Assembly (NCBI RefSeq): GCF_037042905.1
Contig: NC_087250.1
Coordinates: 27,530,001-27,594,000 of the forward strand
Length of the DNA: 64,000 nt
Direction: 5' to 3'
Source of the DNA: Lytechinus pictus
Taxonomy: Eukaryota
Shown here: positions 1-32,725 of the stretch, one piece after another
Layout of the letters: every line of letters begins with the position of its first letter
How positions within the stretch are numbered: position 1 is the first letter of the stretch
Position numbers and translations under genes: made by a program
Notes under the pieces: generated by a model
Told to the model about the DNA's origin: nothing
The model's database searches: none
Seen by the model: the letters and a program-made list of their open reading frames with translations, nothing else

Positions 1-634
1 TTTAGCCCCCTAAATGTGCATGCGCCGGGTCAAGTCAGTTTTTATCTGATCGCCCGAGTCAAGTTCTACAAGTTAGGATACGTGGTTACCCTGGCTAGGC
101 CGTCGGGATATCCCTGGGGCCCCTTGAAAAAATACTTTATTTTAATTTAAAAAATGCGATAAATAGCCCTTTATTCCCTTTAATTTTGTTAATTTTAGCC
201 CCCTAAATGTGCATGCGCCGGGTCAAATCAGTTTTTATCTGATCGCCCGAGTCAAGTTCTATAAGTTAGGATACGTGGTTACCCTGGCTAGGCCGTCAGG
301 ATATCCCTGGGGGCCCCTTGAAAAAATACTTTATTTAAATCATCTAAAAATGCGATAAATATCCCTTTATTCCCTTTAATTTTGTTTAATTTGAGCCCCC
401 TAAATGTGCATGCGCCGGGTCAAATCAGTGTTTAACTGGTTGCCCGTGTCGAGCTCTACAAGTTAGGGTACGTGGTTACCCTGGCTAGGCCGTCGGGATA
501 TCCCTGGGGCGCCCCTTGAAAAATTACTTTATTACACACACACCGCCAAAAATGGCCGGTGCCCCCCCTGAAAAAGCAAGGACCCCCCATTGCCCCCCCT
601 CCGGGGGGGGGGGGGAATCCTAGCTACGCCACTG
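1..634. mobile_element. Right end of a non-autonomous DNA transposon (CAGTGGCGTAGC-type terminus) with an internal ~195-bp tandem repeat; left part lies outside the window
   Basis: About 2.7 copies of a unit starting tttagccccctaaatgtgcatgcgccggg (at ~1, ~194, ~390). The region ends in tcctagctacgccactg at 634, the reverse complement of the CAGTGGCGTA terminus also seen at 29566/30532. Confidence 0.65.
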
Positions 635-710
635 TCTGTGAAGATCCGAAAACGCTGGAAATTAAAAGCTACGGAGCCCGAGAGGGGACATGCATTAACA
701 TTTTTTTTTT

Positions 711-1196
711 AATAAGTCGTTCCCACCACTTATAAGTCGTTCCCACCACTTATAAGTCGTTCCCACCACTTATAAGTCGTTACCACCACTTATAAGTCGT
801 TCCCACCTCTTATAAGTCGTTCCCACCACTTATAAGTCGTTCCCACCACTTATAAGTCGTTCCCACCACTTATAAGTCGTTCCCACCACTTATAAGTCGT
901 TCCCACCACTTATAAGTCGTTACCACCACTTATAAGTCGTTCCCACCACTTATAAGTCGTTCCCACCACTTATAAGTCGTTACCACCACTTATAAGTCGT
1001 TCCCACCACTTATAAGTCGTTCCCACCACTTATAAGTCGTTCCCACCACTTATAAGTCGTTCCCACCACTTATAAGTCGTTACCACCACTTATAAGTCGT
1101 TCCCACCACTTATAAGTCGTTCCCACCACTTATAAGTCGTTACCACCACTTATAAGTCGTTCCCACCACTTATAAGTCGTTCCCACCACTTATAAG
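711..1196 (+). repeat. 20-bp subterminal tandem array (tataagtcgttcccaccact) x24
   Basis: Read directly; no spacers; occasional c>a variant units. Confidence 0.98.
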
Positions 1197-1308
1197 CCGG
1201 TTAGCCATCGCCGGCGAGCTCCTCCTTCAGCGCTTAGCCATCCGAATGTATGCAGCTTGATTGTTTTGAAGCTAGCTAGGGCTTGGCCTTGGCTTGAGTA
1301 GCCTTAAG

Positions 1309-1362
1309 GGCTTGGTGATAATGTGAAATATTGATATCAATATTTCACATTATCACCAAGCC
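1309..1362. repeat. 54-bp perfect palindrome within the element arm (mirror copy at ~3819-3872)
   Basis: ggcttggtgataatgtgaaatattgat|atcaatatttcacattatcaccaagcc. Confidence 0.95.
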
Positions 1363-1710
1363 TTGAGTGACGTAGGCCTATAGCTCTAGACACAAAAATC
1401 CGTCTGTTCTCCTCAGAACAGATTTTTCTGTCTAGCCTAGCCGACGCTAGTTCGGAATCGTATCTAGATTTGACCCATAACTCCGGCGTGGAGACATCCT
1501 ACTAAAACATACCCAAAATCAAGAGTAGGCCCATAATAATTATTTTCTTAATTAAAAATACCTCACTAAACATTTATATACCGTGGTCATATCTACCAAT
1601 CTCTTCTTAATATCATGATTAATCAACCTCGATCCATATATAGGGAGAGAGTTGGATCAAGAGAGGAATCGAGAGAAGGGGGGGGGGGGAGGGGGGTCCT
1701 GTTATAACTA

Positions 1711-3472
1711 CAGTGCGTCTCAAAAAAACTATACACTTTTGAAAGGGCTACCAAACAAAAGATATGTCACTTTGGGGGAATATACCTACATATATGGAAA
1801 GCCAATGAAGTCAACTTTCAGATGACACCAAAAAGTTGGAAAACTATTCATGCTTGAGTGAGCACTACCCATTAAACAAAGGGTATGAAAATTAGGGATT
1901 GGCAGGAATTAGCCTTTCAATTTCTGTCAGTTTTTGAGAGGCGAGTCCCTCGGAACTTGTTAACTTAAATTAATTTAATTTAAATTAATGGTCATTTATG
2001 ATCGATTTAAATTGTTGAAGCAAATTTCATGAATTATCAAATTGAAATTTCATGCATGAGTGATCGTGAATTGCACTCTTTAGTGCAGTATTTTAACTTT
2101 ACAATGTGGATCTCAGCCCCGATCTTAGCAGTGCATTCATTTGTGTCAGGAGAATAGGGTTAAGAAACGACTTCAGTGGGTGAAGTAAGCTGATGGGGAA
2201 AAGGTTCAACAGAACGTTTAGCCTCCCTCCTTCAGGTCCGCCCCCCCCCCCTCCTCCTGTTGAGATTGAGACTGATTGCTATTACATGCACGCATTAAGT
2301 CCAGAGTGGACTGTCAATTTGATAATAAATTCTGAAAATTAGGTCATCAACTTTCACTTATCAATCATTCAATCAATAATTTGTTAGTAAATCAACTCAA
2401 TGTGATCAATCAATTATTCACCTTTTTCAATAAATTATCAATCAAACATTCAGCTTTTTCAAAAAATTATTTCATAAATCACCATAATTAATCAAGATCT
2501 TAATAATCATTCAATTGAAAAGAAAGACCCATCAACCATAAGTCACGAGGCATTTAAGTTTTTAATACCATCCAGGAAAAGAAAGGAGTGGAGGGCGGGG
2601 GTGAGTACATGACATGTAATTTGTATTAAAGGTAACACAAAGAAGAATGCCCCTTTAACCCAGTCTTATCCTATCTCATCCCCTTGCATGTAAGAGGTAC
2701 AATCACACTACTCTAACTCTCACAAGCAAACTTGCCAAGATCCACATAATAAACTAAAAATGCTACACTAAAATTACAATTGCTGTTTACTCATGTATTA
2801 CATTTCAATTTTGTAACTTGCGTAAGAAACCAAAACTGATCTCAATTCATCAGTAATTTAGCATAACATCCTACCCTTAACTTTGCAAGTTCCAAAGGAC
2901 TCACCTCTAAAAAACCACTGGAAGGCTAATTCCTGCTCCCCTTAACAAAGGCTAGTCTCTCAGGAGGGGTGGAAGGGGTACAGAGAAAGAGGGAGGGGGG
3001 GGGGGGTTAAGTGATCTGTTGACCCTTATCCCATCAACCTACTTCCCCCACCTAAGTCCTATCCCTTCCATGATCACATTGCTGAGATCCACGTGAAAAA
3101 GTTAAAAATTGTATTTTATGTTCTCTCATGCATTAATTTCAATTTAATTATTCTTGAAATTTGCTCTAAAACCTAAATTGATAAATGCTTGATAGTCGAT
3201 TTATCAGAACACCCCCAACTTTGCAAGTTCCAAGGGACTCGCCTCTCAAAAACTGACAGAAATTGAAAGGCTAATTCCTGCCCACCCTAATTTTCATACC
3301 CTTTGTTTAAGTGGGTAGTGCTCACTCAAGCATGAATAGTTTTCCAACTTTTTGGTGTCATCTGAAAGTTGACTTCATTGGCTTTCCATATATGTAGGTA
3401 TATTCCCCCAAAGTGACATATCTTTTGTTTGGTAGCCCTTTCAAAAGTGTATAGTTTTTTTGAGACGCACTG
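1711..3472. mobile_element. Tc1/mariner-like non-autonomous element with long TIRs
   Basis: TA|CAGTGCGTCTCAAAAAAA...TTTTTTTGAGACGCACTG|TA; ~245-bp near-perfect TIRs plus degenerate internal inverted and direct repeats; no ORF. Confidence 0.9.
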
Positions 3473-3984
3473 TAGTTATAACAGGACCCCCTCCCCCCCC
3501 CCCTTCTCTCGATTCCTCTCTTGATCCAACTCTCTCCCTATATATGGATCGAGGTTGAGTAATCATGATATTAAGAAGAGATTGGTAGATATGACCACGG
3601 TATATAAATGTTTAGTGAGGTATTCTTAATTAAGAAAATAATTATTATGGGCCTACTCTTGATTTTGGGTATGTTTTAGTAGGATGTCTCCACGCCGGAG
3701 TTATGGGTCAAATTTAGATACGATTCCGAACTAGCGTCGGCTAGGCTAGACAGAAAAATCTGTTCTGAGGAGAACAGACGGATTTTTGTGTCTAGAGCTA
3801 TAGGCCTACGTCACTCAAGGCTTGGTGATAATGTGAAATATTGATATCAATATTTCACATTATCACCAAGCCCTTAAGGCTACTCAAGCCAAGGCCAAGC
3901 CCTAGCTAGCTTCAAAACAATCAAGCTGCATACATTCGGATGGCTAAGCGCTGAAGGAGGAGCTCGCCGGCGATGGCTAACCGG

Positions 3985-4290
3985 CTTATAAGTGGTGAGA
4001 ACGACTTATAAGTGGTGGGAACGACTTATAAGTGGTGGTAACGACTTATAAGTGGTGGGAACGACTTATAAGTGGTGGGAACGACTTATAAGTGGTGGGA
4101 ACGACTTATAAGTGGTGGGAACGACTTATAAGTGGTGGTAACGACTTATAAGTGGTGGGAACGACTTATAAGTGGTGGGAACGACTTATAAGTGGTGGGA
4201 ACGACTTATAAGTGGTGGGAACGACTTATAAGTGGTGGGAACGACTTATAAGTGGTGGGAACGACTTATAAGTGGTGGGAACGACTTATT
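3985..4290 (-). repeat. Inverted copy of the 20-bp array, x15
   Basis: agtggtgggaacgacttata units, the reverse complement of 711-1196. Confidence 0.98.
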
Positions 4291-5908
4291 AAAAAAAAAT
4301 TGTCATGCATGTCCCCTCCCGGGCTCCGTAAAAAGCCATGTTAACGTGAATTTTTGTTGCATGTGGTCGTAACATAAAGCTATTACGTAATAGCTTCATG
4401 GTCGTATCATGCATGCACTGTACTGCGTGCCCGTGTGTATAACGTATTTCGATATGGCTGTTGGTTGTGCGAAAGACGAAATCAGAGAGCAGGAAGTGGA
4501 AAGCGAACTACCCGATTTCGTTTTCGCTGTCTGCGTTTTTCCAAACAGAATCAGGGGGTAGAAAGCGTGTTCTGATTTTGTTTTTAATATATAACAAACA
4601 CAGGTATAGAATGAGGTATCAGAGAGGACCAAAAGTATTTCTGATTTCATTCTTCTGTTTTTGATCTCCAAAAATGAAATCACAACAGGTTTTTCTCGTT
4701 GTGATTTCGTTTTTGTGTTTTCAGAGACCAAACCATGAGGTTGATTTCCGTTTTTGCTCTACGAAAATCAGGAATGAAAAACGAATTATCCATTAGTACC
4801 CTGATTATCCAGGCAACCAGGCATATCTGAATACCTACGTAGCGAGAAAGCAAGTTCGCGAGAGTCGGCAGTCACAGAGGAAGAAACAAACACAGATGCA
4901 ACAGCTTCAGGAGATGAAGAAGAATCCGACTCGTATCTATCTCCCGAAACACCGAGCCCTAAAAAACAAGGGGAAAACCCCGTCAAGCGTAGGAGAAAAC
5001 AGAAAAAATGAAGAAAAAAAAATTGAACAGTAATTATTCTTGAAAGGTGCAGAGATGGTCCATATCTGTTCTAACTTGAAAACGCAGAATCTACACCTCA
5101 TTTCTCTTAATGTCAGAGGCATTCGGAATAAAGTAAAACGAGGCGTTATATTCCCATGGTTATCTTTTCAAAAAGCGAATGTAATTTTATTACAAGAAAC
5201 CTTCTTAAAGTATACACACAAAGAAAATTCACGAAAGTGATGATTATAGACAAATTATATATGAATGGAAAGGTCTTGTCTTTTTATACACAAATATGTC
5301 ACTAAAAAGTCTTATCGATGTCGTGGAAATGCAAGAAATGAAATTATTAGAGACCATTCTAAGCCCCCCAGCCGCCCCCCAGACCGACAGTTCACGCAGT
5401 GAAAACAGTCGAGAATAATGACGTCACACAATAATCGAGCTCATCATCCCTCTGTGCATAATAGTACACTGAATCACCTTACTGACCTCTTCAATATCTT
5501 CCGAATTTACCGTTTTCTTCATGTAATGTGACATCCGAATTCTGTTTTCGACAACTTCAGACTATAAGGGAACCAGAACTGTGTTATTTTGCCCGTTTTT
5601 TATTGAATTGTGAACTGGAAAGATCGATTTTGTCCACTCGACAGTCTTCGTTGTGTTGCTCTACTAACTATTGAAAAACTCCAAGCTGCACGGTCCCATT
5701 CACTTGCTCCCGATGCATGTTGCAGGCTACGCTGTTTGATCCAGTCAAAAGTCAAGGTAAGCATGTTTGGAAACTGTACTTGTTCTGACGATGCATTCAG
5801 GTCAGATGACAGATACAGATCTGATATAAGTTTAGAATCATGCATTTTGGCATAACTACTATTAAAATTAAAAAGTTTTTATTTTAGAAATAATGTTTTT
5901 GTACAATT

Positions 5909-6524
5909 CCACCCAAGGCAAGGGTTCATTACATGCCGCCACGCACAGAAAAATCAAGCCATAGAAGTCGTGTGTTGTGGACCCAAGAAGTGAGATCCCA
6001 GACGCCTCCAGGCTAAGCACGCGCGACCCACTAGTTAGAAATCCACTGCCAAACGCGGTTCGTGGTGCGGGGTTAGTATACTTAATACGTGTGAGTGGCA
6101 CAATTCCAGCAGATTTTTTCTTCAGATTTCTAAAACTGGTCAGGACTCAGGCAGGCAATTAAATTATTTAGGAGCACTGAGTGGTATGGACCATGGCTGA
6201 AAATCTGCTGTTTCAGAGGAATGTTTAAGTTTTTATTATACACAGAATTATATCACCATGATGCCGATGTCATGAAGCCAGACAAATTTTCAGCAGTGAT
6301 TACCCTGATTCCTGGCCAAAATCACTCACACGTATTGCGAGGTTAGTATTAGTATACTACTAGTACGTATTGCGAGGTTAGTATTAGTATACTAACCACG
6401 AACCGCGTTTGGCAGTGGATTTCTAACTAGTGGGTCGCGCGTGCTGGGATCTCACTTCTTGGGTCCACGACTTCTATTGCTTGAATTTTCTGTGCGCGGC
6501 GGCATGTAATGAACCCTTGGGTGG
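5909..6524. repeat. Imperfect inverted repeat (~190-bp arms, ~225-bp loop), MITE-like
   Basis: 5909-6097 is the reverse complement of 6323-6524 with small indels. Confidence 0.8.
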
Positions 6525-6647: not shown

Positions 6648-6804
6648 TACCTCAAGTGATGTTCGTGTAGTCTCCACTTCACTACTGGAGTACTGCTACA
6701 GCCTATACTACGCTACACACTTACCCGGGTAGGTGTGGCGTACATGTACGGTAGTGTAGCGGTAGTGAAGTGGAGTGGGGCCTACACAAACATCACTTGA
6801 GGTA
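6648..6804. mobile_element. 157-bp hairpin MITE, hAT-like (8-bp TSD)
   Basis: TACCTCAAGTGATGTT...AACATCACTTGAGGTA flanked by gagcaccg / gagcacca. Confidence 0.7.
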
Positions 6805-8359: not shown

Positions 8360-10565
8360 CATCGCCCTAATAGGAAGGCATTTTTAAGATATATGAAAGA
8401 AAGTCCGCTCGCCGCTGTTTCCTAATAATGCTTCGGCAATTCAACTGCAATTTCAGTCATTTCGCGATGGATATTGCCGTGTTTTTTTTGTGATTCCTGA
8501 CTTTGCTACTTAATGAAATTTCATAATTTTTGTTCAGTCATAAAGAAGAATGTCTATGCTTTATATTGACTATAACATTAATGTGACGCAAGTGTGATTT
8601 CTACGTGAAAATATGCTTTGTTTATTCACCTATATTTCTTGAAAAAAAAAAAAAAATTCTAAGCTAAATATCGGTCACCAAAATACGTTAAATGTGCACT
8701 TTTTTTCACTGTTCAGTAAATTCAAACTTTTATCTATATAACAAGACCAATCTTAAGAGGAATAAACAATTCTAAGAGCAAAAAACGCTGATTGGAAAGA
8801 TCGTCTCCAATGGGCTGCTGTCAGCTCAGCTGCTCACTGCTCATTGTGTGACGTCACTCAGCTGGAGCTCGCAAGAGGACCGGTGGAAGGCAGAAATATG
8901 GCATGAAAATAAATCATTTTTGAGAGCTGATTTCTGCAATCTCTGATCACTATTTTGAAAAGTGAAGTTATATATCTGATTAGTAATACTTCCCCTTTAC
9001 AATGATGACCACATAAAGTCATTATAAAATACTTTTGATTCTTTGGATGTATACTTTAACAACTGAACTGGAATATGCGTTTAGATCATAAAAATGTGGT
9101 GAGCTGTGCTTTTTCAACCATGGAACAAATCATTCTAAAGGCGTTGTGACTATAATAAAAAAAAACAGGATAACATTGAAATACTCGAAACTTTTGTGAA
9201 ATTCGACGGAAGGGCAATCGCTGTAAGATTAAGTGTTAAGAAAAAAGTATACTTTCTTCTAAATGTTTATGCCCCTACTAAAAAATCTGAAAAAGAAATA
9301 TTTTTCAAGATAATGTATAACTGGATAAAAGATATAAAACAAAAGGGTGATTTACTCGTATTTGGAGGTGATTGGAACTGTGTACAAGATCCCAAGCTTG
9401 ATACCCAAGGTTGTTCACAGGCTTATAAACAAATTAAAGGGTTACAAAATATTCAGAATAAATTTAGTCTAAGTGACGTATGGCGAAAATGGTATCCACT
9501 CGGAAAACAATTTACCTGGCGTCAATTATCGTTAGGTATATCATCTCGACTTGATTACTGGTTGATTTCTTCATCATTGTATTGTAATGTCCAAAGTACT
9601 GATATCAGACCTGCAATCAAGTGTGATCACTGTGTCATATCACTAAAATTAAGGATAGAAAGTGTTACGAGAGGAACGGGGACATGGAAATTTAATAATT
9701 CATTATTACATGATTCTGTCTATAAGAAACATATTAAGTATATTATAAACTCTACATCATTTCAATGCTATATGAATGCAAGAACCAAATGGGACATTAT
9801 GTAAAAAATAAGGATTCGAGAGTTTACCATGAAATTCGGCAAGCAAAAGCAAATTGAAAAGATGGAATGGTATAAAAGAACGTACGAAATGTACATGTTA
9901 TTGTGCAGGAATGTTGACAGTGGTAATTACGAAAGAAACGACATAGCAAGAATGAACGATCTGAAAACAGATATTGAAAAATGGTATGCACATAGATGTA
10001 GGGGCGCATTTGTAAGATCTCGCGAACGGTGGATGGAATCTGGCGAAAGATCTAACAAGTATTTTCTCAATTTAGAAAAGAAAAATGGAAAACAAAAAGA
10101 AATTGACTGTATAAATAAAAATGGAAAAATTGTTACTGGTAATGGAAACGTTCTTAAAGAAATAACAAAATATTACAAAGACTTATACTAAAAAAAGTCT
10201 TTAAGTGTACATTCCGAAATAAAAAAGTACCTAAAAAATACAAATTTAACTACTCTTTCTGAGGATGATGCACTGGCTTGTGAAGGCTTAATAACAGAAA
10301 AGGAATGTTTTGAAGCGTTAAAAATAATGAGAAATAACAAATCTCCCGGCAGTGATGGACTAACTGCTGAATTATATCGGTGCTTCTGGGATGATTTAAA
10401 GTATATGTTGATCGATAGTTTAAACGAATGCTTTGAAAGTCAAGAGTTGTCTGAAAGCCAGAAACAGGCCGTCATTACACTGTTGCATAAAAAAGGTGAC
10501 AAGAGAGTAATAGACAACTGGAGACCAATTTCATTGTTGAACATTGACTACAAGATCCTTGCAAA

Positions 10566-13780: not shown

Positions 13781-14374
13781 GGCATACATTCGTAATTCCG
13801 AAGCTTCGTTATTCCGAAGGTTCGGATATTCCGAAGGTTCGTTATTCCGAAGGTTCGTATTTCCGAAGGTTCTTAATTCCGAAGGTTCGTTAGTCCGAAT
13901 ACGAAATTAGGTTCGTAATTCCGAAGGTTCGTTAGTCCGAATACGAAATTAGGTTCGTAATTCCGAAGGTTCGTTAGTCCGAAAACGAAGTGAGGTTCGT
14001 AATTCCGAAGGTTCGTTAATCCGAAAAAGAAATGAGGTTCGTAATTCCGAAGGTTCGTTAGTCCGAAAACTAACCTTATTTCGTTTTCGGACTAACGAAA
14101 CTTCGGAACAACGAACCTTATTTCGTTTTCGGATTAATGAACCTTCTGAATAACGAACCTTATTTCGTTTTCGGATTATCCAACCTTCGGAATAACGAAC
14201 CTTCGGAATAACGCCCCAAATGTTCGGATTAACGAACCCTTTTACGTTTTCGGATTAACGAACATCGAGGTATAGGTAGTTTGCGTGTTTCGGAATTACG
14301 AACCTTCGGAATAAAGAACCTTTGGAATTACGAACCTTCGGAATTACGAACCTTCGGAATTACGAAGTGTAACC
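13781..14374. mobile_element. Mutator/MULE-like foldback MITE built from ~16-bp repeats
   Basis: 9-bp TSD TTATGGTAC (13772-13780, 14375-14383); GG...CC ends; ttcgttattccgaagg-type arrays in opposite orientation in the two halves. Confidence 0.9.
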
Positions 14375-16185
14375 TTATGGTACAATAGCAATATTAAACA
14401 CGGAAATGACCTCTTATATTTTAAAGAGTGGAAAGCTAACGGGATTGAAAAAGTCAGTGACCTTTTTGAAAATGGGCAGTGGATATCGTGTGACTCCTTA
14501 CAAAGACGATTGGGCACAAATTCATTGTTAATACATTTCAAATTTTCTAAATTGAAAAAGGCATTTCCAAAAGTATGGGTGAGTGAAACAAGAAATACAG
14601 TTTACACCAAAGATGAAACAGAAAATGAACCAGAAATGTTTGAAATATCATCTGGTGATTTCATTAAAGTTTGTTGCATGAAAGCAAAACATTTTTATTT
14701 ATTACTAAATGAATCAGAACAAGAGAATCCCTCTGTTTCAGGGTGGTGGGAGGAAATTTGTCAACTACCAGTAGATTATTAATGGAAGCACGTATTAGAT
14801 TTTAAGTTGAAACATATCAGAGATAATAAAGTGAGACAATTTAATTTCAAATTATTGCACAATATTTTGCCCTTTTAGAAAAAAATCTTTTTAAATGGAA
14901 GATCTCGTCAAACATTATTTGCTCATTTTGTAACGAACCTAAATCATCTATTTACGTTTTGTTAAAATGTCACCAAGTCACTGATTTTTGGAAAAAGGTT
15001 CACATTTTAATACTAGATTGGTTTCAAAAAGACATTTATTTAGAAGAAAAGAATATTGTAATTGGTTTTGAAATCAGTGAGTCTAAATTTAATTTGATTA
15101 ACCTATTATTAATTTATGCACAATATGCAGTGTACAAAGTATATATGTTAAATTACTTCAAGAATAAATTGTTCAATAGTCAATCAATTTTGGATGGTAT
15201 TTAAAAATGATTTCAGGAATTATGCTCAGTGGAAATAGAAAAATAAGAAAGATGTTTCAGAAGAACTTGAAAAGTTTCTGTTTTAGATACTCTTACCATT
15301 TCTGCATCTGTATTTACTTTTTTTTTCTATACATGTTGATTAATTTTGTATACACGTGATTATATTGTTATTTGATTTGATTTTATGAAATAAAGTACCT
15401 CAGAAGAGGAAAAGAAAAAAAATATATATATATGTGGATTTATTTCCTTCATGAAAATATGATTAGAATTAGTGGTCTTCAAATGCCGTGTTTTATGTGA
15501 CTAGGAAATAAAATAATTCAACACGCATTTAAAGCACTTTTCTTGCTCGGCGGGGATGGACGAGGCGCATTTTTTTCTGTCTAAAAGGGCGCCAAAATCA
15601 GGTCAGGTTTTGGCCCCTCCCTACGAAATCCCTGATCTTATTATCATTATTCTATACATGAGGAATTTCGTATAACATTTTTTTACAATGAAAAGAGCCT
15701 TTAGTCTTTTTCTCTTCGAACATTTAAATTTCGCTGTAAAGTATGCTCACTGCGTATACTAAATTTTGGCCCTAAACATCTTTTTGACATTGTTTGTCGT
15801 TTTCTCTACGCACTATCATAATTTATTTCCAAAATTCTTTGCAATTTGAGCACTGATCCACGTTTATCATGAGCTAAAAATAAAAACCATACCTCCTAAT
15901 TTGTGTATACACTGCACCTTTTCGTGTATCCGTGTTTAATAATACATTATACAAGGATCTTAATTCAACTAAAGAGAAAAAAAAGTATTAAATTAAGCGT
16001 TGTTTTATCGGTTCACAAAACAAAATCTGAGAACACTTTCACTGTAAAGGTTTCTTAAAAAGCGAGATAATGTTTAATATACCCTCGTAATTTTTTGTTC
16101 AAATGTTTCTTGAGTTAATTTTAACTTTTCTTGCTTTTTTTGTTTTGTTTTTTAGGTAGGCTACTGTCCCCATTTTCTCTTCGTC

Positions 16186-17848
16186 ATGGCGTCTAAGTTC
16201 CCAACAAAGAAGGGTGGAGAGGTAGAGCTTCGTACAAGGAAAGGTCATGACATGACCTGGTCATGTGACAAGCATGGTGAGCCAATCAAATTTTACTGTA
16301 AGAAACACAAAATTCCCATATGTCATCCATGCGCTACCAAAAATCACAGCCAGAAACCATGTGAGCTAGACGACATCGAGGATGTTATCTTCGAAAGGAG
16401 AAGACAGCTAGATGAAAAACGGCCAATAATACAGGAACTTCAGAAACAAATGGAAGCCCTCAAAGCGAAAATAAAGACTACATCAACGTCTGGAAGTACT
16501 CATCTTCGGAAAATTGACAACAACATTCAAGCTTCATATTACGACAAGATCGATTCTGTTGGAGAAAAGGAGAACAGGATGATTAGGGTTATTAACGAGG
16601 AGGCAGATGAGGAAATAAGACTAGTAAATGAGAAGAGAGAAAAACGGATCAAAGACTGCAACACCGAGAGAGAAAAGGAGCGACAAATCATCAGAGACCA
16701 AAAAGCAAAACTTTTATCAGATGCAAAGAAAATCAGCGAAGTTGTTTCTAAGAAGATCAAAGATCTTGCTAATAAGAATCAGCATGTAATAAACACTGTA
16801 GAGAACATTGAATCAACCATCAAACGTATAAACCAACATGATGAAACATTGGTGAATGAAGCTCCTCAAGTACTTGCATCTATTGATGAAAATTTTAATT
16901 TTAATGTTCATCAAGATGTTAGCGATTGTCTTGACCGAATACAGAATGAAGTTGAGAGAGTGAAATTTGTAGAGGGGGGAAGTAGGTGGAGAATACTATG
17001 GTAAAATTGATGGGTATATCGGTAAATGGGAACTTGTCAAATCAATCAACATTCCATCGGTTGTTAATAACCCGTGTGTGCGTGGTTTAGTCAGTGATGA
17101 TGAGATATGTGTGCGAGACGAAGATAACAAAGACATGTATATTACAAACATCAACACTCAACACACAGAGAAAGTCATTGATGGAGGTGTGTGTATTACA
17201 TCATGTGCGCCCATAGACAGTAACGTAATAGTATGTGGAAAGTGGAGAGATGATTGCACGGGCGACAGGTTGAATGGATGCATCACTCTCTATGACAGAC
17301 AATGGAAGGTGATTAGAGACATCAGCATACCAAGGAATGGATACAGCAATCGTGTGTATGTTGATGTTGACAGGGATGGGATGATCATCGCTGCTCAGTA
17401 CAATCAGTCTAATATCTACGTCATCAATCCTGCTAATGATAAGATAGTAAACACTATTACGATGCAGGGTAAGAAGGTGTGGGGTGGGATACAAGCCTTG
17501 TCATCAGGTGATATCGTTGTTGAGACAAGTTATGATGAATACACTGTCATCTCACGATCAGGAGAAGAGAAGGCACTCATACACTGTGGTGAGTGGGACT
17601 GGTGGTCACAGTGTCGCGTTGACAAACTGACAGACACACTCTACATCGCGTACTGGGATGGAGCGCGTAATACCATCGCAGTTGATCAGGCGTCACGTGA
17701 TGGTATCATCCAGGCAAGGAGGATCGTGGAATACGTGAAATCAGATCGCTTTCACTATTTCAGCCCTTGTCTTGTTACTCCTTCTGGTAACCTCGTAGGA
17801 TGTGATGGAGACAAACTTCTTATCTACAAGAAGACATTAATCTTGTAA
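16186..17848 (+). CDS. B-box / coiled-coil / beta-propeller (RING-less TRIM/NHL-like) protein, copy 1; ~553 aa if one +1 frameshift in a G6 run (16974-16979) is corrected
   Basis: B-box-like CDKHGEPIKFYCKKHKIPICHPCATKNH; long charged helical segment; repeated beta-strand blades (VYVDVDRDGMII, IQALSSGDIVV). Polypyrimidine+AG acceptor at 16141-16155. Copy 2 is in frame across the break. May be a pseudogene or a homopolymer sequencing error. Confidence 0.8.
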
Positions 17849-18311
17849 ATCATCTAGACTATCAAAGGAATCATATCGGATTTGTAAGAGAAATATAGAC
17901 CAGAGATTTGTTTTCACTTTTACTTCCATTTCAATTTACGTCCTTCTAGCTCTATATGTACGTGACTACATTCATATACACATGGCCATGGTGTGTATAA
18001 TGTTGTATCAATCCATATCAAATAGAAAAATTTCGCTAATATCCACTCCGTCTAGATTTAGGTCTGTAATGAATGCCCTCAGATCCAAATGAATAGTTTA
18101 CTCGAAACCTGAACAAAATAAATGCAAAATGTGTTAACGAATTGCCTACTTGAACCAGATGGTTATTGTAGAAAGTCTTTTAGAATGGCTGAATTCAGTA
18201 TTGAACGTGTTAATAACTGATTAACTGATGTTATTCTCCTAATAGTGATCGGATTATTCCTCGATTAAAATTGCTCTCAGCTTTTAAGGTATTTGATTCG
18301 AATCAATTAAT

Positions 18312-19879: not shown

Positions 19880-22030
19880 TTGCTCAATATTTGTTGTTTG
19901 ATCTTATACAGCTAATTACAATTTTCTTCATAAAACTAGGAAAACTGATGTACATAATGAACATTTATATTATGATATAACATGTATAATGGGATTATTT
20001 TAGTATCTATTATTTCAAGTGTATATTGCAAGACGAGTAGAAACTATACTTTTTGTTTTTAAAATAATATATTTTCATTATACTTTGTTGTGAATTACTA
20101 ACACTATTGAATAGAAAAAAAAACAACGTTTGTTGATGTATAGACTTAAATCGAGACGAAATTATTCTTACCTACTTGAGAGCTGAAAATAGTCAAGTGA
20201 AAATAGTTTGGAAATATCTTTCTTTACTGTGAGTTAATGTATTTAGTAAATTTCGAAGAAAAAAATTGCCAATGCAATATATAGTGCGTCCCACAAAAAA
20301 ACGAAACCGAGATTTATCGATGATTTATCATAACTTAATCACAAATAAAATAGACAAATGACCTAACATTGTAAAGCTTGGAATTTCCTCTTTCATCTGC
20401 AATTACTTAAATAATTTTTTATTCACGCATGAGTGAGTAAAAACAAATTTGAAGAGGGGATACCAAAAAGTCATTTGGCGGGCTGTATCTGGGTTTTAAA
20501 AAAAAAACCGCATTTTGAAAAATTTCAATATCTGCTCTTTAAATTGATACCTCAATTACAGAAAATGGTCAAGAAATAACACAGTTCTGGTTATTTGAAA
20601 TAAGGTTTGAATTTCAATAATTTCATAAAATAAAGAGGTTTTACAGGCTAGCGTTCAAACTCACTCGACACTCCGTTTTGTTGACTATCAGCCATGCATT
20701 AAGTCTTTTGTTAACTGTGCGATAGCTTCTGTGGGAAACCGGTGAAAACACGTTTATTTAATGAAATTATGGAAATACAAGCATTGTTTCGAGGGAACAG
20801 AACCTTTTTACTTCTTCACAATTTTTTGAGATTAAGGTATCAAATAAAAGAGCAGATATTGAACTTTTTAGGCATGTGATTTTCTTTTTGAAATTCAGAT
20901 ACCCCCGCCAAATGAGTTTTTGGTATCCTTTCTTCATATTGTTTTTGCTCACTCATGTGTAAATAAAAAATAATCTCAGTAATATCAGATGAAAGAGGAG
21001 ATCCTAGATTTACATTGATAGGTCATTTGTCTATTGTATTTATGATTAAGTTATGATAAATCATCGCTAAATGTCGGTTTCGTTTTTTGTGGGACGCACT
21101 GTATAGTGATATACAAATTGCTGATCTAATTATCAACCGATCGGAAGAATATCTAAGATTTTAAATTGATCAAAAATACATGGTGTATTTTGAAGTTATT
21201 ATCATAGTTATGAAGAGGGTGTTCTTAATACACAAATAATCACGTACTATATAATCAAGAAATTTTGTCAGCATAAATGAAAATATATGTCAAACAAAAT
21301 ACCGACTTTGCTCAATATATGATGTTTAATACATACAGCTGATTATAATTCGCTTCATAAAACTTGGAAAACTATTGTACATAACATGCATAATGAACAT
21401 TATTATGATATAATGTATATCATGATATCTATTATTTTCAAGTGTATATTGAATGATGAGTAGAAAGTATACGTTTGCTTTTGATATAATATATTTTTAT
21501 TATACTTTGTTGTGAATTACTACGAAAAAAAGCCAAATTATTGTTGTTGGATAGACTTAAATCAAGACGAAATTAATCTTAAATACTTGAGAGCTGAAAA
21601 TAGTCATATGAAAATAGTTAGGAAATATCTTTCTTTACTGTGGGTTAATGTATTTAGTACATTTCGAGAAAGGTTTGCCAATGCAATATATACATGATAT
21701 ACCGGTAGTTGTATACAAATTACTGATCAAAACACCAATTATCAACCGATCTAACTATATCTTCACTATGGGTTATCTACGACATTTCGAGAAAAGCTTA
21801 CCAATCCACAATGAGTTGTATGCACATTACTCATCTAAAAACCAAGTATCAACCGATCTGAATAAATGCTTAATATTTTTAAACTGATCGAAATCTTTGC
21901 AGTTTTTTTTAGGTCATTATCATGGTGATGGGGAGGGTGATTTTAATGCACAAACAATCATGTAATGTTATAATCAAATAATTTTGTCAGCATAAACGAA
22001 ATTAAATGTAAAAAACCCGACTCTATATGC
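19880..22030 (+). repeat. Old tandem duplication (~620-700-bp unit); first unit split by a Tc1-like MITE
   Basis: 19880-20281 plus 21103-21315 aligns by eye to 21316-22030 (e.g. tacttgagagctgaaaatagtca...ggaaatatctttctttactgtg). Confidence 0.75.
20282..21101. mobile_element. Tc1/mariner-like foldback MITE
   Basis: TA|(t)AGTGCGTCCCACAAAAAAACGAAAC...GTTTCGTTTTTTGTGGGACGCACTG|TA; ~300-bp diverged arms. Confidence 0.88.
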
Positions 22031-22850: not shown

Positions 22851-24078
22851 AGGGATGGTCCAGGCTGAAAATGTTCATAATAACTAAATAGAGTAAAATC
22901 CACAAAGCCAAATGCTGAAAATTTCATTAAAATCGGATAACAAATAAGGAAGTTATTGAATTTTAATTTGTCTAATTTTAAATATTTTGTGAAAACAGTT
23001 ATTTGCATATGGTCATGATTATTCATTAGGTGGGCTGATGATGTCACATCCCCACTTTTCTTGTTCTTATCTTATTACATGAAATCATACACGTTTCATT
23101 TCTTCATACATGTGCAAATGATGTGTCTCTATTACGATAAAATAGGTTGCAGCAATAAATAACTAATGCACTTGATCAGTTGCCATCCAATTGTTTTAGC
23201 TCTTGGTAGAAAAAGTTTAATAAATCTAATTTCATATAATACAATACAAAAGAACTGGCGGGGATATGACTTCATCAGTCCACCTCATGAATATTCATAA
23301 AGACAATCATGCCTAGAATAGTAAAACTGTTTCACCGGAATGATAATGCAAATCTTTAAAATTCAAATAACTTCGTTATTTTTTACCCAATTTTGATCAA
23401 ATTTTTAGCATATTGCTTTTTGAATTTTATTCCTTTTATTGAGATTTAAAGGTCAAGTCCACCCCAGCAAAATTGTGATTTCAATAAATAGAGAAAAATC
23501 AAACTAGCATAACACTGAAAATTTCATCAAAATCGGATGTAAAATAAGATAGTTATGTAATTTTAAAATTTCGCTTCATTTCACAAAACAGTTATATGCA
23601 CATCTCTGTCGGTATGCAAATGAGGGAACTGATGACATCACTCACTATTTCTTTTGTATTTTATTATATGAAATATGAAATATTTTGATTTTCTTGTTAT
23701 TGTAATGTGAGTTGAAGTTTCATTCCTCCCTGAACACGTGGAATTCCATTATTTTAACATTTTGTGCTTCAGGCAAGGAGGTCCTAATCGTCAAATTCGT
23801 AAAAATTGAAATATTGTGTAATTTAAACAATAAAAAACAAAAGAAATAGTGAGTGAGTGACATCATCGACTCTCTCATTTTGATGTAACTGGCTCGTTCA
23901 TATAACTATTTTGTTAAAAATAAGCGAAACTTTGAAATGTCATAACTTTCTCATTTTACATCCGATTTTGATGAAATTTTCAGCATGATGTGCTCATCTG
24001 ATTTTTCTCTATTGATTCAAATCAACATTTTGTTGGGGTGTACTTGTCCTTTAAATATCTCCAGCCTGGACTATCCCT
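22851..24078. mobile_element. Kolobok-like MITE (outer)
   Basis: TTAA|AGGGATGGTCCAGGCTG...CAGCCTGGACTATCCCT|TTAA. Confidence 0.88.
23450..24050. mobile_element. Kolobok-like MITE nested in a related MITE
   Basis: TTAA|AGGTCAAGTCCACCCCA...TGGGGTGTACTTGTCCT|TTAA. Confidence 0.88.
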
Positions 24079-24483
24079 TTAAATGTGACCATTGTGCTAC
24101 TTCTAAAATTTCAAAGAACTACGCCACTGTCATATTGAAATTATGTTCAACGCTTCACCAAAATAATATATCAAAATATAATAACACAACACAAGAAATA
24201 CATTTAATTATAAAATTATAAAGAATAAAGAAGATTATGGCAATGGCAATTAATGAAAGTGAAATGTGAAGGAACCTGCATAAAAAAGCAGAGCTTATAA
24301 TGTCTGCTGGTTCCCTAATATGGTTTAGATGCTTTGATATGGTAATTGTTTAACTACGGGCTGGGGGGGGGGGTTCAAGTATATCTAATACAAAATAATG
24401 TATGCACTGTCAGACCAACGCACGTTGCTTATTGAATAACCCATTGAAAGTAAATTTCTTCTTCTTTAGAAGCCACCCAGTAA

Positions 24484-27400
24484 TAGACGGGTCAATATAC
24501 GACCAAAAATAGCCTTACCCGGAACAAATTGCAACAAATGATTTTTCAACGGTATTTTGTACTATTTGACCTCAGGAATAACATACTAAAAATCTACCAA
24601 AATCCGCATCCGGGAAAGTGGTTATTTTCAAGATGGCGTCCAAAATGGCCGCCATTCACTGAGAATGGATACAACTGACACATTATCCACCCTAGAATAC
24701 TATTTCGGTTCATATTCCATGGTCTGGGGTACAAACATTGATTTAGGCTAGGATGCATTATGAGCCCTCCAGTGTACCAGGCAAATCCAAGATGGCGCCC
24801 AAAATGGCTGCCGTAGGCTGAAAATCCACAATTAATCTAAATTTGTTTTTTAGTTAATGGTTTTAAAGGTGAAATAGTACATTGAAACAAGTTACAAGGA
24901 CAGCCAGTGGTCGAGTGTGTCCAAAAATCCAAGAAGGCTTCCAAAAAATGAGTTTAAAATGGCTGTTGATAATTAAAATGGACATAGTTCATTTTATATC
25001 CGCCTGGGACATAATGATTTTGGTGTCTAGACCATGATTTCAATGGTCAAATAAGACATTGGGATAAGTTACAAGGACAGTCAGTGGAGTAGTATGTTCA
25101 AAAATCCAAGATGGCTTCCAAAAATGGAGTCGAAAATTGCTGTTGCTACTTAAAAAAAACCGACATAGTTTGCTCAATGTCCAGAAATATGATTTTTGTG
25201 TCTAAACCATGGTTAAATGGGTCAAATAATACATTGGGGCAAGTTACAAGGAAAGTCAGTGGTCTGGTATGTGCAAAAATCCTAGATGGATTCTAAAAAT
25301 TGATTCTGAAACGGCTGTTAATACTTAAAGCGGACAAAGCTCATTTCATTTTGGCCTGGGTATGTGATTTTGATGTATAAACCACTGGTTTCAAGGGTCA
25401 AATAATATATTAGGATAAGTTACAAGGACAGTCAATGCTATGGTATGTCCAAAAATCGAAAATGGCGTCCAAAAATGGTATTAGAAATATGCTGCTGATA
25501 CTTAAAGCGGATCAAGCTCCTTTCATATCGGCCTGGAAATGTGATTTTGGTGTCTAAACCACTAGTTTCAAGGATCAATTAATACGTTAGGGCAAGTTAC
25601 AAGGAAAGTCAGTGGCCTGGTCGGTCAAAAAATCTAAGTTGGCTTCCAAAAATTGATTCTAAATTGACTGCTGCTACTTAAAGCGGACATAGCTTATTTC
25701 ATATCGGCATGGGAGATGCAATTTTGGTATCTAAACCACTGGTTTAAGGGCCAAAATAATACATTAAGACAGGTTTTAAGGCCAGTCAGTGGTCTGGTAT
25801 GACCAAAAATCCAATATGGCTTCCAAAACTTGATTCTTAAATGGCTGTTGATACTTTAAAGTGGCATAGCTCATTTTCAATCCGCTGTGAGATATGATTT
25901 CGGTGTCTAAACTATGGTTTCAAGGGTCAAATTATATAAATGGACAAGAAAATGGCAGTCAGTGGTCTAGTATGTCAAAAATTACAAGATGGCTTCCAAA
26001 AATGGAGTAAAAATATGTCTGATGTTACTTATAAAAGGACATAGTTTGTTTAATATCTGTCTGGGGAATATGAGTTTGGTGTTAAAAGCATTGTTTAGAA
26101 GGGTCAAGTAATACACTAGGGTAAGTTACAAGACCAGTCAGTTGTCTGTTTAAAAAAAAATCCAAGATTACTTAAAAAAAAAGGGGTGTAAATTGACTGT
26201 TGCTACTTAAAAGTATGCATAGTTTATTATAAATACACCTTGGAGGTATGATTTTGCTGTCTATACTAGAGTTTACAGGGTCAAGCAATACCTTGGGTTA
26301 AGTTGAAAGGACAGTCAGGTGTCAGGTATGTCCAAAAATCAAAGATGGCTTTAAAAATAGGAGTCTTAAATGACTGCTGTTACTTAAAAGTGGATGTAGA
26401 ACATTATAAATACACCATGGGGATATTATTTTGGTGTCTACACGAGGGTTTCAAGGGCCAAACAATACTTTGGGACTGGTTACCATGATATGCAGCTATC
26501 CATTTTGCCTTAAAATCCAAGTTGGCTTAAAAATGGGTTCTAAAGTGACTACTGTTACATAAAATATCTACCTGTTAGAAATAATCTTGGTGCCTACACT
26601 TAAATGCATGGGGACAAGTTATCATATTGTTTAATGAGTTGGTAACAGCACCCATTTTGATGAAATTTTAGAATCCATCATGGATTATTTGACAAAATGG
26701 AGTACTAACCATCCTGTTTACTTGTCCGAATGTATCATTTGACCCTTCATACCACAATTTGGACACCAACATTATTTCTTGCAGATGAATATTGTAGAAC
26801 TCTGACCACTATTGAATGATATGAGTCGTTTTAGATTCCTTTAAAAACCCTCTTGTGTTTTAGGCGAACTGGACAACTGCATATCAATGTAACCAGTCCA
26901 AACGTATTATTTTAACCATGAAACCATAGTGTGGACACCGAAATCATATCTCCTAGGTGGATTTTAAATGAACTATGTCCATTTTAAAAGTAACAGCAGT
27001 CATTTAGACTCCGATTTTTGGAAGCCATCTTGTATTTTCGACATACTGGACCACTGACTGTCCTTGTAACTAATTTTCTGCCTTTTGAAACCATGATATA
27101 GGCAACAAAATCATATGCCCTTGACGAATAAAACATGAACTATGTCATTTTTAAATACCATCGCGGCTAATTGATACTATTTTTTAAGCCACCGTGGACT
27201 TTTGGACATACTTGACCACCAATCGTTCTTGTAACTTATCCCAATTTATTATTTGACCCATTTAACCATGGTATAGGCACAAAAAATCATATTCCCGAAT
27301 AGAACAAACTTTGTTGGGTTTTTTTAAAGTAGCAACAGCATTTTTTACTCCATTTTTGGAAGCCATCTTGGATTTTTGAACATACTGGACCACTGACTGT

Positions 27401-28008
27401 CCTTGTAACTTGTCCCAATGTATTATTTGACAATTGAAACCATGGTCTAGACACCAAAATCATATCTCTCAGGTTGATGTGATATGAGCTATGTCCATTT
27501 TAAGGATTAACAGCCATTTTAAACTCAATTTTTGGAAGCCATCTTGAATTTTTGGACACACCAGACCACTGGCTGTCCTTGTAACTTGTCCCGACGTACT
27601 ACTTCATCATTAAAACAATCGGATGGAAACCAAATTAAAGCCACTTAAGTAAGTAATAGATGAATTGTGGAGTTTTTAGACTACGGCATCCATTTTGGGC
27701 GCCATCTTGGATTTTCCTGGTACCCTGGAGTGCTAATATTCACTCTAACTTGTATAAATAAATTCTTTTACCCATTGGACCATGGAATATGAACCCAAAT
27801 ATGATTCTAGGGTGGATAATGAGTGAGTTATATCAATTTTTAGTGAATGGCGGCCATCTTGGATGACATCTTAAAAATAACCACTTTCCCGGATGCGGAT
27901 TTTGGTAGATTTTTAGTATGTTATTCCTGAGGTCAAATAGTACAAAATACCGTTGAAAAATCATTTGTTGCAATTTGTTCCGGGTCAAACCATATATTGA
28001 CCCGTCTA
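24484..28008. mobile_element. Academ-like non-autonomous foldback element with internal ~180-bp tandem repeats
   Basis: TAA|TAGACGGGTCAATATA...TATATTGACCCGTCTA|TAA (TAG ends, 3-bp TSD); long inverted arms; ~180-bp units forward at ~24880-26600 and inverted at ~26890-27620. Confidence 0.8.
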
Positions 28009-28820
28009 TAACGGCTTCCATGAAATGACAGTGATCTGAAGTCGGGTATCATCTATCGGGAATTCACCTTCATGTCTATCCATTCTACGTCAAAAGATGG
28101 CGCTCTTTTGAGTCTACATTATTAATAGGGGTGGGCAAATGACAAAAAAAAAATGAAACGGGTGGATTCTATGGCCATTTTTGCTGCTGAACCCAAATCT
28201 GACAACCATTTTGACCTACGATGTAGTTTGATATTGGTTCCAAGCGATTTTTCAAAATGGCCGCCAAATTTGTTCTAAATCGGTGTTTTAACAGGTAAAT
28301 CCTTAAATATCTATACAAATAAGGCTTGCAATATGTCTAAATATATGTTTTCAAGGTCAATGAGCACAAAATACATGAATCAGATAATTTGAGTCATTTA
28401 AAATAACGATTTTTGGTGAAAAACGGCATTTTGAGGTCATTTTTTTGTAAAAATTGCCTCCAAATCACAATTTATACATAAAACCTCAATAATCTATTCA
28501 TCTATAGTGTTTCATATGTCTAAATATTTGTTTTCATGGCCACTGAGTTCAACAATAGATAAAACAGACATGTTTTTTGGATTTTGTACTGTCATTTTTA
28601 ATAGAAAAATAATGTTTTCTGTAATTTTTGGAAAAAAATTACTGAATACAGACTGCAAATATACAACTACAGCTTGTAATCTGGCTATAACCTTGTTTTT
28701 ATTGCTATTTGTTAAAAAGAATGTGTATTTTAGTGGATTTTCGTCAAATATGACCCCCCCCCAAAAAAAAAAATGAATACAATGAAGGATTTCACACGCT
28801 TGCATGTCATGCAACTATTG

Positions 28821-28823
<3 letters not shown>

Positions 28824-28881
<58 letters not shown>

Positions 28882-28888
28882 TATATAC
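28824..28888. repeat. (TA)n microsatellite
   Basis: Read directly. Confidence 0.97.
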
Positions 28889-29454
28889 ACTGTATAAGTG
28901 GATATTTTCAGTTTTTCGAAGGGTATCTCCATATCAATTATAACAAAATGAAAAAAAAATACAAGAGGACAAGTGTACATATTTTATGTTGTCAAACATT
29001 TGGGAAAACAAGTTCCCGCTAATTTCACAAAAATAGCATTTTGGCACTATTTTAAAATTGAACGGCATAAAATGGGTGTCCAATCTATCTTGTTATATAT
29101 TTTCAAGAGTGCTGAGTTCAAATATTAGCGTACGTAAAAGATTAGAAGCATCGTCATGGTGTTAATTAAAAAACAAGAAAAAAAAAAAGATTTTGAAAAA
29201 TATCGGTATTATACAGAATACATACTTTGAGCCTAAAGCATACTGGGGAACATTTCATTACCATTTGCATTCCACAAATTTCCTTAAGAACAATTGACTA
29301 AAACTCACTGTTACCATGGTAACTGTCAGATAAAACAGCAATTGTTAGACTTGTGACAAGTTTTTTTTTTATGAAACATTGGGTGGCAGAAAATATAATT
29401 CAGCACCAACGTTTAAAGGGTTCATAGCCAATAGATTTAGTACTTGCTTGGAAG

Positions 29455-30970: not shown

Positions 30971-31659
30971 CTTGGAAGTTTATGTTATAGCATGATATTC
31001 AATCAAAATATTTCATCAATTAAGTTCATATCAACAAATTCACAGTCTCTATAATTATTCAGAATGAATGTTTCACATGCTGTTTTGTACTACATAATAT
31101 CTACATAATAATGGGTTATCTTGCCATATTCCCCATGATAATGATGATGGAACTGCTGGGCATTAAAAAAATGGGTGATAAGGGTACTGTAGACAAAACA
31201 TGAATAAGAATGAAAATTTCCCTTTATCCTCCAGACATGTTCATGTAAGTTGAGTTTAAGAAGATACTGTATACAGGTAAGGTATATGTAAGACATAGAC
31301 TTGCTAAGAGTCAGACTCCCAAAACTGACTACATGTACTTCTGAAAATCAGACAATAAACATGATAATAGCAACAATGGCTGTCTGTGTATTATCACTTG
31401 GGGTATGATTTGTAATTTTTTTAACGCTAGACTAACATAGTTATTGATGGAACTAAGTTCCAGGAAGAATATACTTATAAGTGGTTAATTTAAAAAGCAA
31501 GGAAATGTGCATAGGATCTATGAAATGCTGGGTAAATTGTTTTCCCTTATGTTTGACAGCTTAAGATATGTACATAAGTCTGGTATTTGATATTATTTTT
31601 TTCATTTTGTTATAAATAATGTGGATATATTCTCAGTAAGACTGAAAATATTCATATAT

Positions 31660-31691
<32 letters not shown>

Positions 31692-32663: not shown

Positions 32664-32725
32664 TAATAATAATATAGGGTATTTATATTGCGCACATATC
32701 CACCTTGTTAGGCGCTCAAGGCGCT
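32664..32725 (-). mobile_element. 3' tail fragment of a SINE/LINE ending in (TTA)n
   Basis: Minus strand agcgccttgagcgcctaacaaggtggatatgtgcgcaatataaat...tattattatta resembles the tail of the SINE at 38067. Confidence 0.55.

What the first reader, a model, noticed from the sequence alone, without database searches (positions are those of the whole stretch)
670..4330. Spacer-less ~1.9-kb palindromic transposon with a Tc1-like element exactly at its symmetry centre
Seen: the outer arms stay reverse-complementary right up to the TA dinucleotides flanking the inner element (ggggtcctgttataacTA ... TAgttataacaggacccc). Removing 1711-3472 and one TA leaves a palindrome with no loop. The unique parts of the arms differ at only ~3 substitutions plus G-run lengths. 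Inference: either a mariner transposase hit the tip of an extruded cruciform, or the nested TIR pairs let one arm overwrite the other. The second route would build giant foldback elements from two unrelated superfamilies that then move as a composite.
Basis: partly seen in the sequence, partly recalled or inferred. Interest (0 to 1): 0.72.

Follow-up and report, generated by a model that had tools for sequence, protein, structure and literature searches.

The report
Transposon centred inside a foldback transposon
A gene-less Tc1/mariner-like jumping element sits exactly at the mirror centre of a second, unrelated hairpin-shaped jumping element; the pairing is real, but one arm copying over the other explains it about as well as a transposase aiming at a hairpin tip.

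Summary
The structure is real. A 3.66-kb gene-less foldback (670-4330, TA..TA ends, 6-bp target duplication, IS3EU-like) holds a 1.76-kb gene-less Tc1/mariner-like element (1711-3472) at its symmetry axis. Public contigs show the arm without this inner interior in organism A and the inner element without the arm in organism C. Organism B has a contig across the same arm-to-inner junction. One-family and artefact readings are therefore unlikely. TA is self-complementary, so the window alone cannot tell a target duplication from an inverted copy. Arm differences are 3 substitutions in 674 bp across the junction, against 4 events in 43 at the tips and 4 in 90 further in. The inner copy's minority letters are mirrored in both arms there, which fits arm-to-arm copying. 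The inner copy looks older (at least 2.2% from relatives) than the arms (1 in 273 from B), and B's inner differs from the window's. No empty centre was seen. Arm copying 0.45; insertion at the tip, once or repeatedly, 0.43. The scan noted no look-alike stretch elsewhere, only similar foldbacks in this genome. New variant of a known kind; interest 0.45.

The parts
664..669 (.). left copy of the 6-bp target-site duplication
   Evidence: identical to 4331-4336
670..711 (+). left tip of outer element, begins TACGG
   Evidence: 3 substitutions and 1 indel against the right tip in 43 columns
712..1196 (+). left 20-bp tandem array, 24.2 units
1197..1710 (+). left unique arm, ending in TA at 1709-1710
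   Evidence: 3 substitutions and 2 G-run indels against the right arm; covered up to 1676 by near-identical contigs in organism A, and 1406-1678 with 1 difference in B
1309..1362 (.). 54-bp perfect loop-less hairpin inside the arm (mirror copy 3819-3872); overlaps a very abundant repeat of organism A
   Evidence: summed depth about 70,000 in bin 1264-1327 against about 500 in bin 1200-1263 (X1)
1458..1522 (.). second arm module shared with a very abundant repeat of organism A
   Evidence: depth 386,178 in bin 1456-1519 and loose ends at 1458-1472 and 1518-1523
1711..1960 (+). left TIR of the inner Tc1/mariner-like element, begins CAGTG; perfect to 1870, four left-only changes in 1871-1951
1961..3222 (.). 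inner interior, non-coding, with degenerate inverted similarity (to about 2082/3103; weakly 2169-2230/2998-3058) and an internal partial TIR copy at about 2738-2945
   Evidence: longest stop-to-stop frame overlapping 1197-3985 is 68 aa; 0 of 26 frames reach a Pfam cut-off
3223..3472 (-). right TIR of the inner element
3473..3984 (-). right unique arm, starting with TA at 3473-3474
3985..4289 (-). right 20-bp tandem array, 15.2 units
4290..4330 (-). right tip of outer element, ends CCGTA
4331..4336 (.). right copy of the 6-bp target-site duplication

Best explanation
Two independent non-autonomous cut-and-paste elements are nested. The outer is a foldback with IS3EU-type ends, moved in trans by an IS3EU-type transposase (inferred from ends and 6-bp duplication). 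The inner is a Tc1/mariner-like element that once inserted at a TA in one arm or in the interior. A break at or near the inner element's other end was repaired by template switching. The broken end paired with the opposite inner TIR, copied outward through the TA and the arm, and rejoined at the outer tandem array or tip. That erased whatever lay beyond and put the inner element on the axis with no target preference. The inner element has since ridden as an ageing passenger, while arms were kept young by copying within and between family members. Shown: two families, the junction in independent data, the mismatch profile. Inferred: the break, the copying event, joint movement, arm renewal.
For: Symmetry is highest in one tract that crosses the junction: 3 substitutions in 674 bp (plus 2 G-run indels), against 4 events in 90 bp further in (Fisher p=0.005) and 4 in about 42 bp at the tips (p=0.0003); both tract ends lie in pre-existing inverted homology. 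Of the 40 variant rows shown, the window holds the minority letter against both B and C at 30: 25 in 1961-3100 (at least 2.2%), 3 in 1711-1870 and 2 in 1871-1960. The 3 outer ones are mirrored in the right TIR; the 2 inner ones are left-only. Independent decay at 2.2% predicts about 7 unmirrored differences in the outer 160 bp; 0 are seen (P about 0.001). Two modules shared with abundant repeats sit at mirror positions in both arms, which points to earlier arm copying in this family. In run X2 the depth over 1712-1775 (10.4) equals that of the junction contig alone (10.5), so no free inner terminus is seen in B. The mechanism has precedent: Galileo TIR extension (PMC3573991), Goblin template switching (PMC3814204), short inverted repeats seeding large palindromes at a break (PMC7999016). 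Long loop-less palindromes are unstable; apart from a TA run, the only loop-less perfect palindromes of radius 12 or more in the window are the two 54-bp hairpins.
Against: B's junction contig differs from the window at 6 or more of 148 TIR positions, and three B interior contigs at 34 of 518, while B's arm contig differs at 1 of 273 (p=0.009 and 1e-5). One shared insertion should age arm and passenger alike (about 12 differences expected in 273), so an extra step, arm renewal or inner replacement, is needed. No asymmetric precursor was seen. The mirrored letters could come from a subfamily master with perfect TIRs, since 10-24% of organism C's depth carries the window's letter at those three sites, and unlike tips may be normal for the family. 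The window's second foldback keeps an off-centre insertion uncorrected (51154-55706). The 2.2% figure assumes that B and C stand for the donor; the window's own species may not be among them.
Confidence: 0.45

Rival explanations
1. Tip hot spot. The outer family travels as a loop-less 1.9-kb palindrome, and Tc1/mariner transposase has hit the central TA more than once (window and organism B), because the extruded or bent tip is a favoured target.
For: Same junction in B with a different inner copy and a near-identical arm, which two independent insertions explain without extra steps. Organism A has arms reaching to 1676, within 35 bp of the axis, and almost no depth over 1968-2927. Mos1 bends target DNA 147 degrees at TA, and mariner/Tc1 favour bendable palindromic AT-rich sites (PMC5481204). 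RAG prefers hairpin tips (PMC1618415), and ISPsy8 inserts at a REP hairpin's symmetry axis (PMC1525189).
Against: No empty centre among the joints, loose ends or records shown (24 joints, 516 loose ends and 3257 records were not shown). B shows no free inner terminus, so no sign of a recently active donor family there. The two 54-bp hairpins also have a TA at a loop-less tip and are unhit. No paper found shows hairpin-tip targeting by Tc1/mariner. The graph link between B's arm contig and junction contig is a 30-nt overlap only.
Confidence: 0.25
2. One insertion at the central TA of a loop-less palindrome, by chance (1 in 185 TA sites) or modest preference. It survived because the insert gave the unstable palindrome a spacer, and later arm copying homogenised the TIR ends.
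For: Exact TA-element-TA anatomy. Spacers lower palindrome instability (PMC7999016). Window and B's junction contig share G at 1745, where at most about 22% of organism C's family-level depth has G; this is one site only.
Against: Needs an empty precursor that was not seen. Has the same arm-versus-passenger age mismatch as the best explanation. The inner TIRs lengthen the stem by 250 bp.
Confidence: 0.18
3. The 3.66 kb is one family, and the inner 'TIRs' are just part of its long arms.
For: Any TACAG in a long palindrome mimics a TA-flanked inner element; the window's second foldback has such a motif at 49358-49366/50631-50645 with no other support. In B the only inner terminus seen is joined to the arm.
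Against: Organism C covers 1712-3100 throughout, at depth 980 to 82,000, with zero depth over 1200-1647; organism A shows the reverse. The same terminus motif marks an unrelated TA-flanked element at 20282-21101 (4 matches in the window, 0.03 expected).
Confidence: 0.04
4. Fold-back or chimeric assembly artefact.
For: Near-perfect palindromes are a known failure mode of amplification and assembly (recalled). No raw reads of the source were available.
Against: The arms differ in substitutions, G-runs, tips and unit number; the palindrome stops exactly at a direct 6-bp duplication. An independent run bridges the junction with different letters.
Confidence: 0.03

Closest known systems
IS3EU/GingerRoot DNA transposons (PMC10045372; passages read)
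   Same: TA..TA termini and 6-bp target duplication
   Different: no transposase remnant; arms make up the whole outer element; terminal match to a named Repbase family not testable
Non-autonomous Tc1/mariner elements and MITEs (PMC3814204, passages; PMC5481204, passages)
   Same: TA flanks, CAGTG terminus shared with a separate TA-flanked element in the window, TIRs, no coding capacity
   Different: 1.76 kb with 250-bp TIRs and degenerate extensions; sits on another element's axis, so its TA duplication cannot be verified here
Galileo foldback-like P elements of Drosophila (PMC3573991; passages and Discussion part 1 of 2 read)
   Same: long TIRs with tandem repeats of unequal unit number; TIR extension by copying internal sequence from one arm to the other; chimeras between copies proposed
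   Different: other superfamily; the passages read describe no second transposon acting as the inner anchor or lying on the axis
Sea-urchin TU foldback elements (recalled; named in scan notes e1-7881642 and e1-7909118; search found 0 papers)
   Same: outer tandem-repeat domain plus inner unique domain in each arm
   Different: recalled 8-bp duplication and a unique middle segment; here 6 bp and the middle is a second transposon
Hairpin-tip targeting: RAG (PMC1618415; abstract and 2 passages); ISPsy8 and IS1397 in bacterial REP hairpins (PMC1525189; passages)
   Same: insertion on the symmetry axis of a palindrome
   Different: other enzymes, short hairpins, many independent insertions or biochemistry; here two junction observations and no empty site

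Membership tests
IS3EU/GingerRoot (outer element) | TA..TA termini | tested here: met
   begins TACGG at 670, ends CCGTA at 4330; criterion from PMC10045372
IS3EU/GingerRoot (outer element) | 6-bp target-site duplication | tested here: met
   664-669 equals 4331-4336; one copy only
IS3EU/GingerRoot (outer element) | encodes an IS3EU-type DDD/E transposase | tested here: not met
   0 of 26 frames of 40 aa or more in 1197-3985 reach a Pfam cut-off; filed as IS3EU-like non-autonomous, not as a member
IS3EU/GingerRoot (outer element) | first 11 bases match a known family (Repbase rule for non-autonomous elements, PMC4455052) | not testable with these tools
   no Repbase or Dfam library, no source genome
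Tc1/mariner (inner element) | TA target duplication | tested here: inconclusive
   TA on both sides, but a self-complementary TA inside mirrored flanks proves nothing; flanks of free copies in organism C were not among the rows shown
Tc1/mariner (inner element) | terminal inverted repeats with a Tc1-like CAGTG end (motif recalled) | tested here: met
   250-bp TIRs; same end motif on a separate TA-flanked element at 20282-21101
Tc1/mariner (inner element) | occurs apart from the outer element | tested here: met
   organism C covers 1712-3100 with zero depth over 1200-1647; a hole in contig cover is weak on its own, but the depth contrast is large
Tc1/mariner (inner element) | encodes a DDE/D transposase | tested here: not met
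   filed as Tc1/mariner-like non-autonomous
Foldback structural class (Galileo, FB, TU) | long inverted arms containing tandem repeats | tested here: met
TU elements of sea urchins | 8-bp target duplication (recalled) | tested here: not met
   6 bp here; not filed as TU

The most novel reading that the evidence does not exclude
The Tc1-like passenger spreads through the foldback family by owning its fragile centre. Either the loop-less tip is a recurrent Tc1/mariner target, or centres that break are repaired from filled copies, which copies the passenger into young arms (homing without a nuclease). Either would explain the same junction in two organisms with different, older inner copies and near-identical arms.
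Probability: 0.22. Interest if true: 0.7.

Novelty: new variant of a known kind. Interest (0 to 1): 0.45.

Why it matters
How non-autonomous elements come to be whole hairpins is called unexplained by simple deletion in PMC3814204. This locus offers a dated test case, because two nested pairs of inverted repeats mark where copying began and ended. If the centre is instead a recurrent target, it would be natural evidence that Tc1/mariner transposase reads DNA structure, shown so far in the papers read only for RAG and bacterial IS elements. If filled centres spread by repair, it would be a way for a dead element to persist and multiply inside an unrelated family. As it stands it is one well-marked nest in a genome rich in foldbacks.

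Tried and rejected
No source genome is held, so the genome-wide copy search could not be run. No other copy of arm or inner element lies in the 64-kb window. Exact-motif scans found 0 matches: metagenome contigs for the arm and the inner terminus, viral contigs for the arm end, prokaryote genomes for the arm. Rfam: 0 matches over 600-4400. Pfam: 2 of 26 frames gave one weak hit each (PF12422, E 0.058, 13.9 bits against a cut-off of 27), the same mirrored frame; rejected. Sequencing runs: 14 of 18 listed rows hold part of 1200-3100, none half of its words, best share 0.15; 4 of 18 were laid, on one arm and most of the inner element only; the other 14 are not used. All were contigs, so no reads span the element and uncovered parts do not prove absence. 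Joints between about 1671-1696 and 2982-3008 were rejected as matches between G-rich runs. A TA-flanked 'inner element' in the second foldback (49360-50637) was rejected as unsupported: the motif occurs only in its two arms. Scan notes: no look-alike stretch. Paper searches with no hit or nothing on point: 0 papers; 1 unrelated listing. One alignment setting reports a fourth arm substitution at 1691; it lies in the G-run and is an alignment effect, absent.
Full report
Observation. An outer element runs from 670 (TACGG) to 4330 (CCGTA) between two copies of the 6-mer AAAAGC. Each arm has a tip of about 42 bp, an array of a 20-bp unit (24.2 units left, 15.2 right) and a unique part of about 514 bp. 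The unique parts differ by 3 substitutions and two 1-bp G-run differences. They stay complementary through the TA at 1709-1710 and 3473-3474 into a 1762-bp inner element (1711-3472) whose first 161 bp are perfectly mirrored. Without the inner element and one TA, the model is 1897 bp with a loop-less centre and 185 TA sites. One limit is basic: TA is self-complementary, so a target duplication and an inverted copy of the left flank look the same. The empty form is a construction.

What the parts are. Neither part codes for a protein: 26 stop-to-stop frames of 40-68 aa overlap 1197-3985, none reaches a Pfam cut-off, and Rfam gives nothing. TA..TA ends with a 6-bp duplication are the stated marks of IS3EU/GingerRoot (PMC10045372, passages). 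A second foldback in the window (48080-56408) has the same end type and a 6-bp duplication. The inner end motif also marks a separate TA-flanked element at 20282-21101 with other flanks (4 matches in the window against 0.03 expected). I file the two as IS3EU-like and Tc1/mariner-like non-autonomous elements, by ends only. That the host is a sea urchin comes from unchecked scan notes; I did not test it.

Evidence from other animals. No source genome is held. Of 18 runs listed, none holds more than 0.15 of the words. I laid 4 of them on 1200-3100. Organism A (X1, X3) covers the arm to about 1676; 6 of its 14 listed arm records have 2 or fewer differences (54 differences in 1162 letters over all 14, some from other repeat families). 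It covers the inner TIR only with about 87%-alike relatives among the records listed and has almost no depth over 1968-2927. Organism C (X7) covers 1712-3100 throughout and has zero depth over 1200-1647. So each family occurs without the other. Organism B (X2) has a 202-letter contig over 1649-1858, with 8 other letters and 8 gaps, that bridges the junction, and a 273-letter arm contig (1406-1678, 1 difference) that overlaps it by 30 letters. The junction therefore exists in independent data. With the unequal arms and the direct 6-bp duplication, this makes an artefact unlikely. No empty centre appears in the rows shown; 24 joints, 516 loose ends and 3257 records were not shown, and a G-run 14 bp from the axis breaks contigs there.

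Signs of arm copying. Arm-to-arm differences are 4 events in 43 columns at the tips, 3 substitutions in the 674 bp from 1197 to 1870 (plus two G-run indels), and 4 events in the next 90 bp (Fisher p=0.0003 and 0.005). Of the 40 variant rows shown (243 not shown), the window carries the minority letter against both B and C at 30. Twenty-five lie in the interior (at least 2.2%). Three lie in the outer 160 bp of the TIR and are mirrored in the right TIR; two lie in 1871-1960 and are left-only, as are two indels there. Independent decay at 2.2% predicts about 7 unmirrored differences in the outer 160 bp; there are none. Copying between the inner TIRs therefore happened after some divergence. Whether the same tract ran on through the TA into the outer arms is inferred from the continuous symmetry, not shown. 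A subfamily master with perfect TIRs would look similar, and 10-24% of C's depth carries the window's letter at the three mirrored sites.

The awkward result. B's arm contig differs from the window at 1 of 273, its junction contig at 6 or more of 148 TIR positions, and three of its interior contigs at 34 of 518 (p=0.009 and 1e-5). Only 1 of B's 30 laid records is 99% alike or better. A recent insertion shared by both is thus unlikely. Either two different inner copies reached the same TA in young arms, or one old composite has had its arms renewed or its centre copied into younger family members. Against repeated insertion, B's depth at the inner terminus (10.4) is that of the junction contig alone (10.5), so no free, recently active donor is visible there. 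The run is shallow and filtered, so this is weak.

Mechanism. I rank arm copying first (0.45). An inner element inserted at any TA supplies a second pair of inverted repeats. A break at its far end, repaired by invading the opposite TIR and copying outward to the array, centres it exactly and gives TA on both sides. Precedents are Galileo TIR extension and chimeras (PMC3573991; passages and Discussion part 1 of 2), Goblin template switching (PMC3814204; passages) and large palindromes seeded by short inverted repeats at a break (PMC7999016; passages). It needs no loop-less 1.9-kb precursor, which the last review's rules would make unstable. It does need arm renewal to fit B. Insertion at the tip is nearly as likely in total: repeated (0.25) or once, followed by survival and later copying (0.18). 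Mos1 bends its target at TA and the family prefers bendable palindromic sites (PMC5481204; passages); RAG prefers hairpin tips (PMC1618415; abstract and two passages); ISPsy8 inserts on a REP hairpin's axis (PMC1525189; passages). The data in hand do not separate these readings. In the window, three other insertions inside foldback-like elements are off-centre or in asymmetric spacers (51154-55706, about 31696-31880, about 29455-30973), so neither centring nor correction is the rule.

Novelty. Nested DNA transposons, foldbacks with tandem arms, TIR extension and hairpin-tip targeting are each known. Searches listed no paper whose title or abstract start describes a Tc1/mariner element on the axis of a eukaryotic foldback; the library lacks most subscription papers and Repbase Reports, and I read no supplements. 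The scan's notes hold no look-alike stretch but several IS3EU-like foldbacks and mirror-image Tc1 derivatives elsewhere in this genome; these are unchecked leads suggesting that palindrome formation is common here. Verdict: real, a new variant of a known kind, interest 0.45. The boldest reading not excluded is that the passenger spreads by owning the family's fragile centre, through repeated tip insertion or repair from filled copies (probability 0.22, interest 0.7).

Noticed in passing
window 48080-56408: Second gene-less foldback with TA..TA ends and a 6-bp duplication (CATATC); arms about 1.6 kb at 95-100% with 31-bp tandem arrays, a modular spacer of about 580 bp, and a 4.55-kb insertion in the right arm (51154-55706, ends CCCAG..CTGGG, 4-bp duplication TATT). 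It interrupts an ORF1-like frame at 56372-57325.
   Followed up: partly
window 20282-21101: TA-flanked 820-bp element with the same end motif as the inner element, arms about 77% alike.
   Followed up: partly
window 1309-1362 and 3819-3872: 54-bp perfect loop-less hairpin overlapping a very abundant repeat of organism A; some A contigs join 1271 to 1362, skipping it.
   Followed up: partly
window 24480-28012, 28118-32667, 13785-14371, 23441-24059, 5919-6519, 6648-6804: Further older foldback or palindromic elements, one with 177-bp tandem arms and one with 16/42-bp tandem arms; 28118-32667 holds nested inserts.
   Followed up: no
window 42100-46668 (- strand): 1522-aa Gypsy-like frame in which the integrase-like region precedes the reverse transcriptase, a Gmr1-like order (read from the translation; label recalled, not tested).
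   Followed up: no
window 15529-18068 and 61419-64000: Two 92%-alike copies of a B-box, coiled-coil and beta-propeller-like gene region (domain names by eye).
   Followed up: no
window 4807-5208, 9056-10565 and 57121-59027: Pieces of a Tx1/L1-like non-LTR element at 98-99.5% identity, the left copy split by about 3.8 kb of other sequence (label recalled).
   Followed up: no
window 1-533: 197-bp tandem repeat, 2.7 units, cut by the window start.
   Followed up: no
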